Origin: Styela clava | Lineage: Eukaryota | Direction: 5' to 3' | Assembly: GCF_964204865.1 (NCBI RefSeq) | Contig: NC_135257.1 | Location: 5,022,001-5,086,000 of the forward strand | Length of the DNA stretch: 64,000 nt | In this document: piece by piece, positions 9,001 to 30,000 of the stretch | How the letters are laid out: every line of letters starts with the position of its first letter | Position numbering within the stretch: position 1 is the first letter of the stretch | Made by a program: the position numbers

Positions 9001-12000
9001 TATTTGTCTTCTTCTTGGTATCGTTATGAAAAAATCGCTTTTCTCGTTGATTACTGGACCAATTGCTTTGAAATTTTCAGTGAGTAAAGATTATATTTTT
9101 CCCCAGAAGGCTATTACTTTTATTTATTCTTAAATTTTATATGAATCCTATGAGATATGATATTTCATACAAAATTTCGCGGTATTTATTTTTACTCATG
9201 GGAACACTGTTTTACACTTATTTCAAGCGGTTTCGCGATCGATTGTCTTGCTCAGTACTACAGCTACTGTAGGTCGGTACTGGTAAGTTGCCATACCGGT
9301 ACCGTAACGCAGTGAAATTGACTTATTCCTTCCGCGGTATTACTAATGCTGCAATGCAAGTTTTATAGCCTATCGTATGCGGAACGGAATATCAGACCTA
9401 CAGGTTCGGTACCGGTACTGGTAGCTCAGTACGTAAGTACGATACTGGTGCCGGTACCGGTGTCTTACCACAATGAAATTACCGTAACTTATTCTTTCAC
9501 GGTCCTACCAGTGCAGTAATGCAAGCGTTGTAGCACTTGTAGCCTACTATATTTGTTTATTTTGATGAGAGTCTACTGGAAACAACATAAAATTTGAAAG
9601 GGAAGAATTGTTCTGTGATCAATTATCTGTCCTAAAGTGTAAACAACATAAAATTTGCAAGGGAACAACTGTTCTGTGATCAATTACCGTATATGGCCCA
9701 CGCCCTACAGTGTACAGGTAAGATGCTGGCTGACTGCTAACCGGTACTGGTAGCTCAGTACGTAAGTACGATACTGGTACTGGTGCCGGTGTCTTACAAC
9801 AATGAAATTACCGTAACTTATTCTTTCACGGTCCTACCAGTGCAGTAATGCAAGCGTTGTAGCACTTGTAGCCTACTATATTTGTTTATTTTGATGAGAG
9901 TCTACTGGAAACAACATAAAATTTGAAAGGGAAGAATTGTTCTGTGATCAATTATCTGTCCTAAAGTGTAAACAACATAAAATTTGCAAGGGAACAACTG
10001 TTCTGTGATCAATTACCGTATATGGCCTACAGTGTACAGGTAAGATGCTGGCTGACTGCTAACTCAGTACCGCACCTACGTTAGGTACCGGTACCGCCGT
10101 GAATTTAGCTCTCATCTCTTTGTTGGACACGTAGTGGACATAACGATCGTTTCAATATTATGTTGTTCTTGTTCTTTGACACGTTTTTAAAAAGTCGCTT
10201 TTCTCTTCGAATACTGGACCAATTGCTTTGAAATTTTCAGTGGTTAAAGATAAAAATTTTCTCCAGAAGGCTATTACTTTTTTTTTCGCTATGACGTCAT
10301 CAAAATTATGTGACTCTACGTGTCCATATATTTGAGAATAGCTCTCTTGTTTTGTTACACATTTCTAATTTTTTTGAACATGTTTGTTTGACTTTTGTAT
10401 GAATTAAATTTTGAAATACGCTCGTCAACTGATCATAATGTCGCATAATGTTGTATTCCTTCAGAACTGAAATATTTTGTAAGGAGACAAATCGCTGAAG
10501 TTTGATTCTTTTCAATAAAGAAATAAAAACGCTGTCATTCATCTAAAAAACGTCTGTTTTCAGTCCTAGTTTTCGTTTTGTGACATCTTTAAGCTTTCTT
10601 AATATATGGCTGATATCTAAAATACTGCAGTGTGTAATCATAATACCCATACCTATACATAAGATACCGGAATAATTCAATTGTTACGAAATAAACGTGC
10701 TTAAACTGTGATAATGATGTAACAATAGACGGTATCTAAAACTCAAAAGGTACCACATGAAGGGTTAAACTATTTCACTCAAGTTCGGCGGGCCATTTTA
10801 AATCGTCACGCGGGCCTAATTGACCCGCAGACTGCGGTTTAGAACCCCTCAGTGTTGAATCGCACCTCAAAATTAGGGGGGGGGGGGGGGGGTGTTTGAA
10901 ATTTTAGGAGGGGTGTTCACCCCCTATAGGGGGGGGTGTAGGGAAATCACTGCGTGTCATTAATGCGCAATAACAAGCAAGATACAAAATATTTAAAGCA
11001 TCAACAAAGGAAATCCATCTTCGTTGTTTATCTTCCAGGAAGCAAGCTGCGCAAAAAGAATTTATTAATAAATGCTTTTAGGCGAAAATCCCCGTATATA
11101 TCCGCACAAAACTTTGACCGGCTTATAAGTCACAACTAGCAATCTTGCTTTATCATATACAATACAAAAATTTGAAGCAATAGAAATGTTTTTACCATCA
11201 CATTACCAATATAAAACATGTTGTTGCGGGATATTACACATACACAAAAACAGGAGAGTGGTGATAAAAGATTCGATCTGAAGTCACAACTAGCAATCTT
11301 GCATTATGGTATACAATACGAAAATGTCGGTTAGAATAGCCCCGGGTTAATCACCGATTTGGAGCAATGAAAAAGTTTTTACCATTTCATTAACAATATA
11401 AAACATGTTGTTGCGGGATATTATACATACACGAAACAGGAGAGTGGTGATAAAAGTATCATCTTGCATTTTTAGTAAGAAGATTCGGGCAGATTAAAAA
11501 GTATGAAATTTATCATTGTTCGGCATACGATCTATTTTTTGAACGTTGGTCGCAGCAAAATTGTAAATTTTATTTGAAGAAAAAAAACAGGTTTAAAAAC
11601 AAGAAGCTTTGAGCAAAACAAAAAGGTTACTGCATTAAAAACAAAAAATGATTATGTCATTAAAACCCTGCAATACCGTGCGTCAACACGCCGTGGTAGT
11701 AGTTCGATATAAAAGCTCAAAATAAGACAGATTCTAGTTAGGGGTTTGCAACATTTCTTAATATATTAAGAGCTGCAACTTATTTCCTTTTACAAAAATT
11801 TCAATCTCAAATTTCCATATTTTCAGTAAGAGTTGAAATTCAACTACACTTTAATAACCATGAATGATATTTATATGCTGATCATAGCGGGTTTGATGCT
11901 GGCTGCGGAGCACGTCGCTGCACAAGATCAAGGTTGGTTTTTCGTCAGTAACCTTATTTTCATGTATCAACGAAAAATTGTTGGCCGGATTAATCTCGTC

Positions 12001-27000: not shown

Positions 27001-30000
27001 TTCAGGGACCTTATTCATTGCCCTTTTAAACAATATTACAGAATATACATTTACCTCCCATAACCCCCCACCCCCTCCTCCAATTATATTGTCAGTCAAA
27101 CGTTAGGAATTCCTCTCCAGGGAGAACTTTGTTGTTTTCCTGAGGAGGAAATATAAATTTGTATTTGGTGTAGCTCCTCAAATAATGTTTGTGTATTTAG
27201 TATTCTTATAATACGTATTTATAGATATATTGTAAACAATTCAAACTGTGTAATTACCAGAGTGCAAGTGTTTGAGGACCATTAAGGTTAAATAAATAAC
27301 GCACAATGAGGGAGGACTAACGATGTCCAAAATAGCCAAAGGAATTACTCAAAGTAATAAAATATCAGAAAAGTGAATAAATAATAATTTTTTCCACCAT
27401 AAACGGGGTTGCTGTTGTTTCTCGATTTCCGGAGAACTTTTGGAAAGATTACATAGTTTTGGGTTTGAACCTCGTTTATTATTCTCTAAGTCAGTGGTTC
27501 CCAAACTTTTTTGACGATCGCCCCCCTACAGTAGTTTAAACAACTTTCATCGCCATTACAGACCAAATGAGAAGACAAATCATAGTTTATAGTGTTTTTT
27601 TATGAGATAGATGAGCTTGTTGTTCTTCAGTGAGTTTTTTATTATATCTAAAATTACCCCGTTTACTGATGGAAAGGCGATTTCGTTGTTTTAATAGCAA
27701 TAGTATCAAGGCTGAAAACCCCCTTTTCACCATATAATAGGTCAGAAATGAAAGAATCCAGAGTTCTACTTCCTCAAAAACCGCCGTGTACTCTTGCCTT
27801 ATAGCATTTCACTACCTAAATTCACCCCATTTTACATTAAAATAATGAGAACAAAGTTAATTTTTCCAAACTTATTAAGTGATTTTCGTACATCTCATTC
27901 ATTCTCACAGCCTGATGCAAAATACTTCGGTAAAATTTATTCCCGATTCCTCATCCTACCACGGCCTCCAGTCCGATCACCAGTCCATAATTAATCAGCC
28001 ATTTGTTTTTGGATTCATAGACTCGGATGTGGAAGAAGCCGTGACCGACTATGGGCTACCTACGGCCCAGGGGTCGGCAAATTTTATGTCGCTCGCGGGA
28101 CAAAATTCAGGGTTGCTAGTCTTTTGCAGGTCGCATATATTTTTTGAAAGTTAAAAACGGAACAGCGTGCGAAAATTGCGACAATTCGTTAACTCAACTC
28201 AGTCGTCTTTTTAAAAAAATATTACAATGACATTTGATGTGACACTGTCTTGTTGCTGCATCACGCTGGATAGCTTTACGACGCCAAGATTGGAAGATTT
28301 ACTAAATGAGCATCACTAATCCTAGTTCTTTGTAATGTTCATTTTCAAAAATTATTGTTCGCACTAATATGTACTTCCAAACATCGAAGTGACTATTTTC
28401 GCATAATGTGTGAAATTTTGATAAAGATTTTCTTTAAGAAGATACATTCTTACAAAAATTAAGCAGTGATGAATCTCTCGAATGGAATATGAATTTTATT
28501 TCATTATTGCATTGCAATATATTCGAATATTGACTGCGCTATTGAACCCCTGCCCTCAGCATCAACTTTTTTCGTGTTTCCATTTGTCTAATTATAATTA
28601 AATTGTAGGCTCGTTAAACGAATTTTTAGGATATAATAAAATTTAGTCCAAACGTGTTTCACGATAAATTCTGTAACGTAAAAAAATGTAATTTACTCCT
28701 CGAGCGTAGATTATAAATAAAAAATTTTCATCGTCAAAACTTCCGTTTGGATGTTTCCCCGGGCATAGACTTCCTTGTTTACTTCGTGACATTGGCCAAT
28801 CAGCAGGATGCAAAAAAACAATGGTTACTTTGTTTCCTATGAGTTTCAGTTTAAATACAGTAATCAAAAATTTGTGTACAAATAGCTGTGATAGACTAGG
28901 CTAAAATTCTTTATCGGTACTTTTAAAAAACAGATTGTTGAATGGTGTGTATTAGAATGATAGTTTGAAACAAATACCCCATTTTACAGACAACAATTCG
29001 CGAAACAACTCTTAAAATAAGCACCGAAAATTTTAAAATGGTAAAGTATGGGAAGAATTTTCCGCGGTCAAAGGTCGAGGAAAAGTCCATTCATTGAATC
29101 GTCCCGGGCCAGATTATTTTACTCCGGCCGTATTTTGCCGACCACTGGGATACGCAAACTACCGTACCTTACTGCGAAGACGAGTCCAGAAATCCTTTCG
29201 CGTGTGATAATCGCCCACGTGATTCAAGCCTGCGAATGCACACAGAGTACAGAATTAAGTGCACGATGCGCCGAACATAAAACAGGTTTTGCGAAATCGC
29301 CCCCTTCTGTATGGTTTTCGCCCACTGGGGGGCGATATCGCCCACTTTAGGAATCACTGCTCTAAGTCACGAGGCGGAAATTCTGAAATGAAAATATAGA
29401 TATGATACGCTCTTATACTTTCGAATGTAGTTAGCAAACTACCGGAAAATGTCTGAATAATATGTTGGATCCAAAACTGATGGTTGTTGATAGTTAATGC
29501 GCTTTGTCGTTTCGATGAATACTTTGAGATTCTGCTATCAGACAATATATGTTATGATTTTCACCACAAAACAAACGACAAAAGCACATGTTGACAGATT
29601 CACTAATGCCTGTGAATTAATTTTATAGGTGTGGCAAGAAATGGGTGATCAGTATTCATGAAGAACGTTGAAAAATTTGCTTGCTTAAGACCAGTAGAGT
29701 GTATATATATATGAAATAATTGAAGCGCTGAACTGCAAACTCATATAATAAATATGTAAAAGTAAAGGACTGCGACTGAAGTTAAATGTGATTTATAGAA
29801 GTTCCAGGTTAATTTACAACCCGAAGTCCAGTAATAGCTTTGAACAGATCATGCTATAGCAGTATTATGATATTAACTGATTGTAAGTGGGTGCTGATGC
29901 TGATACACTGGTGCTGTAAGATGTTTACATATTTTCCCAGAATAACCTCATTTATTTGATATATGCAGTCAGATTCATATTAATAAAATTGTTCTCTATG

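What the first reader, a model, noticed from the sequence alone, without database searches (positions are those of the whole stretch)
11860..29648. Unusual secreted architecture: DOMON + Pro/Met rod + Met/His-rich EGF array + SMB (candidate adhesive, tunic or metal-binding matrix protein)
Seen: signal peptide, one DOMON domain, ~114 aa of (M/A/V/I)P(K/R/Q)P repeats, ~15 short EGF-like modules rich in Met, His, Tyr, Lys and Arg, a terminal SMB domain, and no transmembrane segment. Established: tandem EGF modules form the body of mussel foot protein-2, and DOMON domains bind heme or sugars. Inference: a structural or adhesive extracellular protein carrying its own redox or ligand-binding head on a polyproline spacer. 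I do not recognise this domain order from any characterised protein.
Basis: partly seen in the sequence, partly recalled or inferred. Interest (0 to 1): 0.7.

Follow-up and report, generated by a model that had tools for sequence, protein, structure and literature searches.

The report
Sea-squirt secreted DOMON–EGF–SMB matrix protein
This is a real, publicly predicted but unstudied gene of the sea squirt Styela clava for a long secreted protein that joins a probable haem-binding head, a stiff proline-methionine spacer, about 14 small methionine- and histidine-rich EGF modules and a somatomedin-B tail, most likely a matrix or adhesive component with a built-in redox site.

Summary
Window 11860-29648 (+) carries 23 GT-AG exons whose peptides sit, exon by exon, at the expected places of a public 959-aa model, Styela clava LOC120345920 isoform X3, "uncharacterized protein". 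Domain order: signal peptide, one DOMON, a 116-aa xPxP rod (40% Pro, 13% Met), 14 six-cysteine EGF-like modules (Met 8.2%, His 6.1%, pI 8.8) plus one unused half-module exon, and a terminal SMB. There is no membrane segment.

New here:
- The DOMON keeps the Met/His pair that ligates b-haem in cytochrome-type DOMONs. Both residues occur in 219 of 244 related domains. Its model (pLDDT 92.6) matches DBH and then the CDH/PDH cytochrome domains.
- The EGF exons were amplified recently (92-94% nt identity).
- The architecture is not unique. A distant, acidic Styela paralogue, LOC120338420, has DOMON, Sushi-like stretch, 23 EGF modules and an SMB-like tail.

Function is inferred: a secreted matrix or cohesive rod with a redox head. 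No expression or protein data were available. It is a new variant of known modular matrix proteins, of moderate interest. I never joined the window's exons.

The parts
11860..11932 (+). Exon 1: start codon and signal-peptide-like N-terminus (24 aa, hydrophobic core, small residues before the likely cut)
   Evidence: It is the only hydropathy peak of the protein (1.58). No signal-peptide predictor was available, so this is read from the sequence.
13014..13165 (+). Exon 2: DOMON, first third (profile positions 1-42); ends with the conserved Met
   Evidence: E 1.4e-6
14757..14942 (+). Exon 3: DOMON, middle (profile positions 44-102)
   Evidence: E 6.2e-5; finds the Styela clava proteins
15186..15312 (+). 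Exon 4: DOMON, last third, with the conserved His
   Evidence: No Pfam hit alone. Local phmmer finds 20 of 151 DOMON relatives. His column.
16499..16864 (+). Exon 5: Pro/Met-rich xPxP rod (121 aa in frame; Pro 40%, Met 13%, Lys+Arg 20%, pI 12)
   Evidence: No real Pfam family.
17589..17711 (+). Exon 6: EGF-like module 1 (divergent)
18073..20212 (+). Exons 7-9 (18073-18201, 18519-18647, 20084-20212): three EGF-like modules, 92-94% identical in nt to each other
20422..20463 (+). Optional 42-nt linker exon. Its equivalent is used in the relative P0002 but not in isoform X3.
20637..20765 (+). Exon 10: EGF-like module
21645..21692 (+). 48-nt linker exon (16 aa, Pro/Asp/Arg-rich)
22576..22704 (+). 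Exon 11: EGF-like module
23004..23051 (+). 48-nt linker exon
23209..24072 (+). Exons 12-14 (23209-23334, 23583-23711, 23947-24072): EGF-like modules within a 364-nt tandem unit
   Evidence: period 364, 2.2 copies, 88%
24463..24579 (+). Exon 15: EGF-like module (short type, 117 nt)
25007..25081 (+). Half EGF exon (5 Cys, phase 1-1), skipped in both public models; a relic or rarely used exon
   Evidence: No Pfam hit.
25185..26545 (+). Exons 17-20 (25185-25301, 25426-25542, 25906-26022, 26435-26545): four EGF-like modules
26707..26838 (+). Exon 21: somatomedin B domain (seven Cys codons plus the first base of the eighth)
   Evidence: 30.1 bits, cut-off 23.1; SUSD2 and vitronectin SMB
29629..29648 (+). 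Exon 22: completes the last SMB Cys codon, then five residues and the stop

Best explanation
Shown: the region is one 23-exon gene of the ascidian Styela clava (public model LOC120345920). Its product has a signal peptide, one DOMON domain, a 116-aa cationic xPxP spacer, 14 non-calcium-type EGF-like modules unusually rich in Met, His, Tyr, Lys and Arg, and a C-terminal somatomedin B domain. It has no membrane segment. The EGF exons have multiplied recently by tandem duplication.

Inferred:
1. The protein is secreted and forms an extended rod. This follows from textbook dimensions: about 0.31 nm per residue for a polyproline II helix gives roughly 36 nm for the spacer, and 2.5-3 nm per EGF module gives roughly 35-40 nm for the array.
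2. The DOMON head binds one b-haem through Met75 and His167 and acts as a small extracellular cytochrome.
3. The basic Met/His/Tyr/Lys-rich EGF array is the load-bearing or cohesive body of an extracellular material (tunic, holdfast or larval adhesive, or a clot). It offers side chains for metal coordination and oxidative cross-linking.
4. The SMB tail docks the rod to a partner protein.

In short, it is a matrix or cohesive scaffold that carries its own redox centre at the far end of a stiff spacer.
For: - One gene: all 22 introns are GT-AG, the phases are compatible, and every exon peptide lies at the expected place of P0001. P0001 and P0002 span DOMON to SMB.
- Secreted: the only hydrophobic peak is at the N-terminus.
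- DOMON: exon pieces are collinear with the profile. The relative P0002 scores 69 bits against a cut-off of 32.7. The model has pLDDT 92.6. Foldseek gives DBH 4zel at 1.4e-7, then the cytochrome b domains 6jt6, 4qi3, 1pl3 and 1d7b at 1.9e-5 to 3.5e-4, then the haem subunits 2ivf_C and 7b04_C.
- Haem ligands: across 415 DOMON instances in 151 proteins, Met is present in 349 of 388 and His in 231 of 252 domains that have a residue at that column. Both are present in 219 of 244. Human DBH has Leu at the Met column.
- Close relatives P0003 and P0031 also pass Pfam CDH-cyt and EB_dh.
- Passages of PMC10784544 describe a conserved Met/His pair proposed to coordinate b-haem in a plant DOMON, at the same place as His176 of cellobiose dehydrogenase.
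- EGF: the six-Cys spacing 4-5-(4-8)-1-(10-11) holds in 14 modules. A profile of the 15 exons hits EGF domains of NELL1 (6.8e-7), CD97 and Notch1 in the PDB.
- SMB.
- Composition: the EGF array has Met 8.2%, His 6.1%, Tyr 5.3%, Lys 10.2% and pI 8.8, against Met 2.0% and His 2.0% in the pooled other hits.
- Matrix precedent: passages of review PMC12817120 say that multi-EGF mfp-2 forms the bulk of the mussel plaque, and that the multi-EGF Ciona papilla protein APAP-1 contributes to cohesion.
Against: - No transcript, tissue, proteome or biochemical evidence was reachable. The public model is a computational prediction and I could not see its support.
- The best solved sequence relative, DBH, is not known to carry haem in its DOMON (recalled).
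- The Styela domain itself does not reach Pfam CDH-cyt.
- A free secreted DOMON has no built-in electron donor: there is no cytochrome b561 and no flavin domain.
- Met richness has other possible meanings.
- The single-module fold search was not significant (best E 0.5), and no EGF exon alone reaches a Pfam cut-off.
- The full architecture was seen in only one species (3 of 151 proteins examined). Conservation therefore cannot vouch for the function.
Confidence: 0.5

Rival explanations
1. Extracellular metal-handling protein. The haem DOMON reduces Cu(II) or Fe(III), and the Met/His-rich rod and EGF array bind the reduced metal (thioether and imidazole ligands suited to an oxidising milieu). 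It would act as a metal buffer or carrier in blood or tunic rather than as a structural element.
For: - Met is 13% in the rod and 8.2% in the array, and His is 6.1%. There are 17 His-Met pairs within 1-3 residues in the array.
- The acidic paralogue with the same architecture lacks this enrichment (Met 0.9%, His 1.5%), so the enrichment is a specific trait.
- A plant DOMON-cytochrome protein reduces ferric and cupric substrates (PMC10784544, passages).
Against: - No known metal-binding family matched any exon.
- The classic MxxM and MxM motifs are few in the array: 4 and 5.
- There is no electron-donor domain.
- Nothing ties the gene to metal-accumulating cells.
Confidence: 0.15
2. Signalling or anti-adhesive matricellular ligand. 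The EGF array and SMB engage receptors or integrin-type partners during settlement and metamorphosis, as recalled for secreted EGF-repeat proteins of ascidian larvae and for tenascins. The DOMON would be an accessory binding module.
For: - One source names the relative P0002 'tenascin-X-like'.
- SMB domains of vitronectin are partner-binding modules (PDB hits; the role is recalled).
- DOMON proteins are up-regulated after coral settlement (PMC3204972, passages).
Against: - No FN3, fibrinogen or assembly domain was found.
- There is no RGD or KGD.
- Recent copy-number growth and near-identical modules fit a bulk material better than a specific ligand.
- The array is strongly biased in composition.
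Confidence: 0.15
3. Carbohydrate-anchored matrix protein. The DOMON binds sugar (for instance tunic cellulose or sulfated glycans), as CBM9-type members of the superfamily do, and tethers the EGF rod to the tunic. No haem is involved.
For: - The DOMON superfamily includes sugar-binding members (Iyer et al. 2007, as cited in passages of PMC10784544 and PMC3204972).
- CBM9 1i82 appears in the fold search (E 1.1e-2, TM 0.43).
- Tunicates build a cellulose tunic (PMC12817120, passage).
Against: - Cytochrome-type domains match far better than CBM9 (E 1.9e-5 to 5.7e-4, TM 0.62-0.64).
- The Met/His pair is kept in 219 of 244 related domains.
- Close relatives pass the Pfam cytochrome families.
Confidence: 0.12
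4. Gene-model artefact. The DOMON part and the EGF/SMB part are two neighbouring genes wrongly fused by prediction, or the locus is not expressed.
For: I saw no transcript evidence. The cluster-member look-up that might have shown the isoforms was unavailable.
Against: - All junction phases fit, with canonical sites.
- There is no stop or polyadenylation-type break in the logic between E4, E5 and E6.
- Two public models, of this locus and of a relative, make the same join.
- An independent, distant paralogue has the same order in one protein.
Confidence: 0.05

Closest known systems
Styela clava LOC120338420 isoform X4 (P0083, 1268 aa, uncharacterised)
   Same: Signal peptide, N-terminal DOMON (66 bits), a long array of 23 six-Cys EGF-like modules, and a C-terminal eight-Cys SMB-like tail that aligns with the window's SMB exon (46% over 37 aa, E 7e-4).
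   Different: - Only about 33% identical in the DOMON.
- It has a Sushi-like stretch and an acidic linker instead of the Pro/Met rod (read from the sequence; no Pfam Sushi hit was listed).
- Its EGF array is acidic (pI 4.8) and poor in Met and His.
- Its tail is below the SMB cut-off (15 bits against 23.1).
Cytochrome b domains of fungal cellobiose/pyranose dehydrogenases (PDB 1d7b, 4qi3, 6jt6) and plant DOMON cytochromes (AIR12, CYBDOM HYP1)
   Same: The same beta-sandwich fold (TM 0.62-0.64). Met and His lie at the two loop positions described as b-haem ligands.
   Different: - Sequence identity is 11-16%.
- Those domains are fused or anchored to an electron source (a flavin domain, cytochrome b561 or a GPI anchor). 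Here the partner is a Pro rod, an EGF array and an SMB.
- Haem binding is untested here.
DOMON of human dopamine beta-hydroxylase (PDB 4zel)
   Same: The best solved relative by sequence profile (8.3e-19) and by fold (1.4e-7).
   Different: DBH has Leu at the conserved Met column and carries copper monooxygenase domains. No such domains were found here.
Mussel foot protein-2 and Ciona papilla adhesive protein APAP-1 (multi-EGF cohesive proteins)
   Same: A secreted body made of tandem small EGF-like modules, and a basic, Tyr-containing composition.
   Different: - The passages read mention no DOMON, Pro rod or SMB for them.
- No sequence comparison was possible because no tool returned them.
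- DOPA is unknown here.
Tenascin-X (the name one source gives the relative P0002)
   Same: An array of small EGF-like modules, with weak matches to the teneurin/tenascin-type EGF profiles.
   Different: No FN3 repeats or fibrinogen-like globe. The name reflects the EGF array only.
Large multi-DOMON extracellular proteins (P0003, P0008, P0031; source organisms not given by the library)
   Same: They are the closest DOMON sequences (E 1e-99 to 1e-26). DOMON is interleaved with EGF-type modules.
   Different: They have 5-12 DOMONs per protein, together with SEA, Kunitz, LRR and FN3 domains. They show no SMB-type cysteine pattern and no Met/Pro rod.

Membership tests
DOMON (Pfam PF03351) | Full-length match to the family profile above the curated cut-off | tested here: met
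   The exon pieces are collinear: E2 covers positions 1-42 (28.9 bits) and E3 positions 44-102 (23.7 bits), each below 32.7 alone. The near-identical public relative P0002 scores 69 bits.
DOMON (Pfam PF03351) | Beta-sandwich fold shared with solved DOMON and cytochrome domains | tested here: met
   Model pLDDT 92.6 with 9 strands. Foldseek matches 4zel, 6jt6, 4qi3 and 1d7b with probability 1.00.
Cytochrome-type (b-haem) DOMON | Met and His axial ligands at the two conserved loop positions | tested here: met
   M75 and H167 are present. Both columns are at least 90% conserved in A1. Both residues occur in 219 of 244 related domains. The ligand assignment comes from PMC10784544.
Cytochrome-type (b-haem) DOMON | Bound haem | not testable with these tools
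   This needs a spectrum or structure of the protein.
EGF-like domain | Six cysteines in the EGF spacing with the C-x-C-x2-G-aromatic core | tested here: met
   14 modules have the spacing 4-5-(4-8)-1-(10-11). Alignment A2 has 4 invariant and 2 nearly invariant Cys.
EGF-like domain | Profile match above curated cut-offs | tested here: inconclusive
   None of the 15 exons reaches a Pfam cut-off. 14 of 15 give sub-threshold hits (13 best to an EGF-type family, E7 to a furin-like repeat) with best E from 1.2e-5 to 0.02. The 15-exon profile hits solved EGF domains (NELL1 6.8e-7). The fold search of one module is not significant.
Calcium-binding EGF | Match to the EGF_CA profile and the acidic N-terminal consensus | tested here: not met
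   No EGF_CA hit for any of the 15 exons. An exon of the neighbouring gene does hit EGF_CA (35.8 bits).
Somatomedin B (Pfam PF01033) | Eight-cysteine domain matching the profile above its cut-off | tested here: met
   30.1 bits against 23.1. PDB hits to the SMB of SUSD2 (9e-4) and of vitronectin.
Tenascin | FN3 repeats and a C-terminal fibrinogen-like globe after the EGF array | tested here: not met
   No fn3 or fibrinogen family in any exon or in P0002.
CYBDOM / AIR12-type DOMON proteins | Cytochrome b561 membrane domain or a membrane anchor | tested here: not met
   No hydrophobic segment after the signal peptide and no Cytochrom_B561 hit.
Copper type II monooxygenases (DBH, MOXD1) | Cu2_monooxygen catalytic domains after the DOMON | tested here: not met
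   Absent from all exons. Present in another DOMON relative, P0123.
Mussel foot protein-2-type adhesive | Sequence kinship, DOPA modification and location in an adhesive plaque | not tested
DOPA and location need proteomics.

The most novel reading that the evidence does not exclude
The protein is a self-contained extracellular redox scaffold not described in animals. A soluble b-haem DOMON cytochrome is held about 36 nm from a Met/His-rich EGF array. It takes electrons from small reductants of ascidian blood or tunic and passes them either to metal ions held by the array, or to cross-linking or polysaccharide-active enzymes in the cellulose tunic. This would be an animal counterpart of the mobile cytochrome domain of fungal cellobiose dehydrogenase. 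The basic and acidic Styela paralogues could then form a charge-complementary pair.
Probability: 0.12. Interest if true: 0.75.

Novelty: new variant of a known kind. Interest (0 to 1): 0.45.

Why it matters
If the reading holds, it links two fields that rarely meet: extracellular haem-DOMON electron transfer, known from fungi and plants, and the protein chemistry of marine invertebrate matrices and adhesives. Styela clava is a major fouling species. A matrix protein with a redox head and a rapidly expandable Met/His/Tyr-rich EGF body would be a concrete candidate for studies of how tunic or holdfast material is cured. The locus is also a clear example of exon-array amplification, with phase 1-1 exons and flanking introns up to 95% identical. 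If the protein turns out to be an ordinary matrix component without haem, the finding is a routine lineage-specific domain shuffle.

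Tried and rejected
- My first donor choices for two exons were wrong. E20 ends at 26545, not 26554, and the SMB exon is spliced at 26838 to a last exon at 29629 rather than read through to 26870. The public model corrected this. 'Styela clava' plus DOMON gave 1 paper, an antimicrobial-peptide review by its title, which I did not open. DOMON plus 'somatomedin B' plus EGF gave 2: in one (opened) the terms fall in separate rows of a table; the other, a MALDI review by its title, was not opened.\n- Bacterial and archaeal genome contigs, phage, plasmid and E. 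coli collections and Rfam were not searched because they cannot bear on a tunicate gene.

Full report
**What is there.** The window has no N and is AT-rich (GC 0.31-0.42). On the + strand between 11860 and 29648 lie:
- open frames with a hydrophobic N-terminus and three DOMON-like pieces;
- a 121-aa Pro-rich frame;
- 14 frames with a complete six-cysteine EGF pattern and one 5-cysteine half module;
- an eight-cysteine SMB-like frame.

Canonical AG/GT sites with matching phases connect them. Every EGF exon is phase 1-1.

**Identity and gene model.** The window's exons were never concatenated, so no whole-protein search, architecture look-up or whole-protein fold of the window's own product was made.

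Searching with exon 3 alone returned two Styela clava proteins (2 hits among 5 candidates):
- P0001, 'uncharacterized protein LOC120345920 isoform X3', 959 aa;
- P0002, 'tenascin-X-like isoform X8', 778 aa.

Nothing in the window looked human.

P0001 maps to the window at 100% identity in most HSPs listed; the few at 93-98% run a residue or more past an exon border. A per-exon check then placed all 23 exon peptides at the expected consecutive positions of P0001. There is a one-residue gap at each split codon, all introns are GT-AG, and the total is 2880 nt, which is 959 codons plus stop.

The public model corrected two of my donor sites. It also added two 48-nt linker exons and the 20-nt last exon (29629-29648). 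P0002 differs by a few substitutions, has a shorter rod and 11 EGF modules, and uses the equivalent of a third linker exon at 20422-20463. It is an allele or close paralogue, and I could not tell which.

**Domains, exon by exon**.
- E2 matches Pfam DOMON positions 1-42 (E 1.4e-6) and E3 positions 44-102 (E 6.2e-5). The intron falls exactly between them.
- E4 gives no hit alone.
- The rod matches nothing real.
- 14 of 15 EGF exons give only sub-threshold hits; for 13 the best is an EGF-type family (Pvs28 EGF, MSP1 EGF, EB), for E7 a furin-like repeat. The best E-values run from 1.2e-5 to 0.02.
- The half exon gives none.
- The SMB exon scores 30.1 bits against a cut-off of 23.1, and hits the SMB domains of SUSD2 and vitronectin in the PDB.
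- A profile of the 15 EGF exons aligned with each other hits solved EGF domains of NELL1 (6.8e-7), CD97, Notch1 and others (28 sequences at E up to 0.1).
- A model of one module (pLDDT 81.7) has the two small hairpins of an EGF. Its fold search was not significant (best E 0.5, to EGF domains).
- None of the 15 exons hits the calcium-binding EGF profile.

**The DOMON head.** For analyses that need the whole domain I used the public relative P0002 (residues 25-180), not the window's exons.
- HMMER against 1.84 billion representatives found 543 proteins at E up to 0.001, 110 at 1e-10 and 21 at 1e-30. Only the best 150 were listed and examined.
- An alignment with 30 short hits shows W40, D55 and D71 invariant. 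M51 and H143 (M75 and H167 of the protein) are at least 90% conserved.
- Across 415 DOMON instances in the 151 proteins, the Met column holds Met in 349 of 388 domains with a residue there. The His column holds His in 231 of 252. Both are present in 219 of 244.
- The profile's best solved relative is the DOMON of human dopamine beta-hydroxylase (8.3e-19), which has Leu at the Met column. A weak hit (E 0.3) aligns the family's Met with a Met of the pyranose dehydrogenase cytochrome domain 6jt6.
- The AlphaFold model is confident (pLDDT 92.6, pTM 0.88).
- Foldseek ranks DBH first (1.4e-7). Next come the cytochrome b domains 6jt6, 4qi3, 1pl3 and 1d7b (1.9e-5 to 3.5e-4, TM 0.62-0.64), then the haem subunits of ethylbenzene dehydrogenase and nitrite oxidoreductase, and only then CBM9 (1.1e-2).
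- The closest sequence relatives, P0003 and P0031, also pass the Pfam families CDH-cyt and EB_dh.
- Passages of PMC10784544 describe a conserved Met/His pair as the proposed b-haem ligands of a plant DOMON, placed like His176 of cellobiose dehydrogenase.

I therefore take haem binding as likely but unproven. I could not inspect the model's coordinates to measure the distance between Met and His.

**Rod and EGF array.**
- The rod is 40% Pro, 13% Met and 20% Lys+Arg, with pI 12. It parses into 29 tetrapeptides and has Pro at alternate positions almost throughout.
- The EGF array of P0001 has Met 8.2%, His 6.1%, Tyr 5.3%, Lys 10.2% and pI 8.8. The other 149 proteins pooled have Met 2.0% and His 2.0%.
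- P0001 and P0002 are the two most Met-rich of the 153 proteins then on file (the 151 plus two unused opossum entries).
- There is no NxS/T sequon and no RGD or KGD, and the only hydrophobic segment is the N-terminus.
- Exons E7-E9 are 92-94% identical in nucleotides and E11/E13 93%. Flanking introns are up to 95% identical. TRF sees a 364-nt unit at 23229-24050. The array has therefore grown by recent tandem duplication.

**Relatives with the same order.**
- Local exon-by-exon phmmer against the 151 proteins found the SMB exon only in P0001 and P0002.
- The EGF exons were found there plus one strong extra hit, P0083, and one borderline one, P0004 (E 0.0057, with E7).
- A cysteine-pattern scan found an SMB-like pattern in 3 of 151 proteins: P0001, P0002 and P0083.
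- P0083 is Styela clava LOC120338420 isoform X4. It has a signal peptide, a DOMON (66 bits), a Sushi-like stretch, 23 EGF-pattern modules, and a tail that aligns with the window's SMB exon (46% over 37 aa, E 7e-4). Alone, that tail scores only 15 bits for SMB.
- Its array is acidic and poor in Met.
- Two smaller relatives of unknown source, P0004 and P0027, have DOMON(s) followed by one EGF and Tyr/His-rich tails.
- Large relatives interleave DOMON with EGF, SEA, Kunitz, LRR and FN3 domains.
- The 393 weaker hits were not listed and so not examined. Other tunicate proteomes could not be searched separately.

**How it most likely works.**
- Shown: a secreted, anchor-less, modular protein with the stated order.
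- Inferred: an extended rod whose DOMON cytochrome sits at the end of a stiff cationic spacer. The Met/His/Tyr/Lys-rich EGF body serves as a cohesive or structural element of an extracellular material, and the SMB tail docks a partner.
- Precedents for multi-EGF cohesive proteins are mfp-2 and Ciona APAP-1 (passages of PMC12817120).
- The rivals are a metal-handling role, a signalling or matricellular role, a sugar-binding anchor, and a fused-model artefact. Each is weighed in its own section.

**Novelty.** The gene is already in a public annotation but is unnamed and, in the searched literature, unmentioned. Each domain is known. DOMON-plus-EGF proteins exist, and a paralogue shares the order. 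What is new is the Met/Pro rod, the Met/His-rich EGF body, and the pairing of a haem-type DOMON with an SMB. I rate it a new variant of a known kind, interest 0.45.

**Surroundings.** These are described only.
- About 15 kb downstream lies a Ty1/copia-type LTR retrotransposon (44333-48769, minus strand).
- From about 60.9 kb a different matrix-type gene begins (VWA and calcium-binding EGF exons).

**Limits.** There are no transcript or proteome data. Cluster members were unavailable. Supplements were closed and not consulted.

Noticed in passing
window 44333-48769, minus strand: This is the virus-like stretch: a Ty1/copia-type LTR retrotransposon. It has two 201-nt direct repeats, 100% identical, with TG...CA ends and a 5-bp duplication on both flanks. 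One uninterrupted 1294-aa gag-pol frame runs from 44566 to 48450 and carries gag, zinc knuckle, pre-integrase, integrase core and reverse transcriptase in copia order. I counted 0 stops and 0 frameshifts. It lies outside the finding's gene and is described only.
   Followed up: partly
window 60885-63998, plus strand: Start of a different extracellular-matrix-type gene. Two exons together cover a VWA domain (45.7 and 49.4 bits). One exon carries a calcium-binding EGF (35.8 bits). A further Cys-rich, Sushi-like frame runs off the window's end.
   Followed up: partly
window 13180-13610: A 211-nt unit repeated twice in tandem at 98% identity, inside intron 2 of the gene.
   Followed up: no
window 16396-16882, both strands: Long ORFs in the other frames and on the minus strand of the Pro-rich exon (Trp/Arg-rich, Ala/Leu-rich, Ala/Asn/Glu-rich) are by-products of the 12-nt periodic repeat, not genes.
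   Followed up: partly
window 18758-19147, minus strand (intron between EGF exons 8 and 9): A 129-aa ORF in a 1436-nt intron that is much longer than its neighbours. From memory it looked like the tail of a DNA transposase, but it has no Pfam match.
   Followed up: partly
window 41673-41915, plus strand: An 81-aa open frame with about 13 cysteines and no Pfam match. It may be an exon of an unannotated small Cys-rich protein.
   Followed up: partly
P0001 (product of window 11860-29648): There is not one N-x-S/T sequon in 959 residues, which is unusual for a large secreted protein. I have no explanation for it.
   Followed up: no
P0083 compared with P0001: The two Styela clava proteins with the same domain order have opposite charge: EGF array pI 4.8 against 8.8. 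They could be a complementary pair, but this is untested.
   Followed up: no
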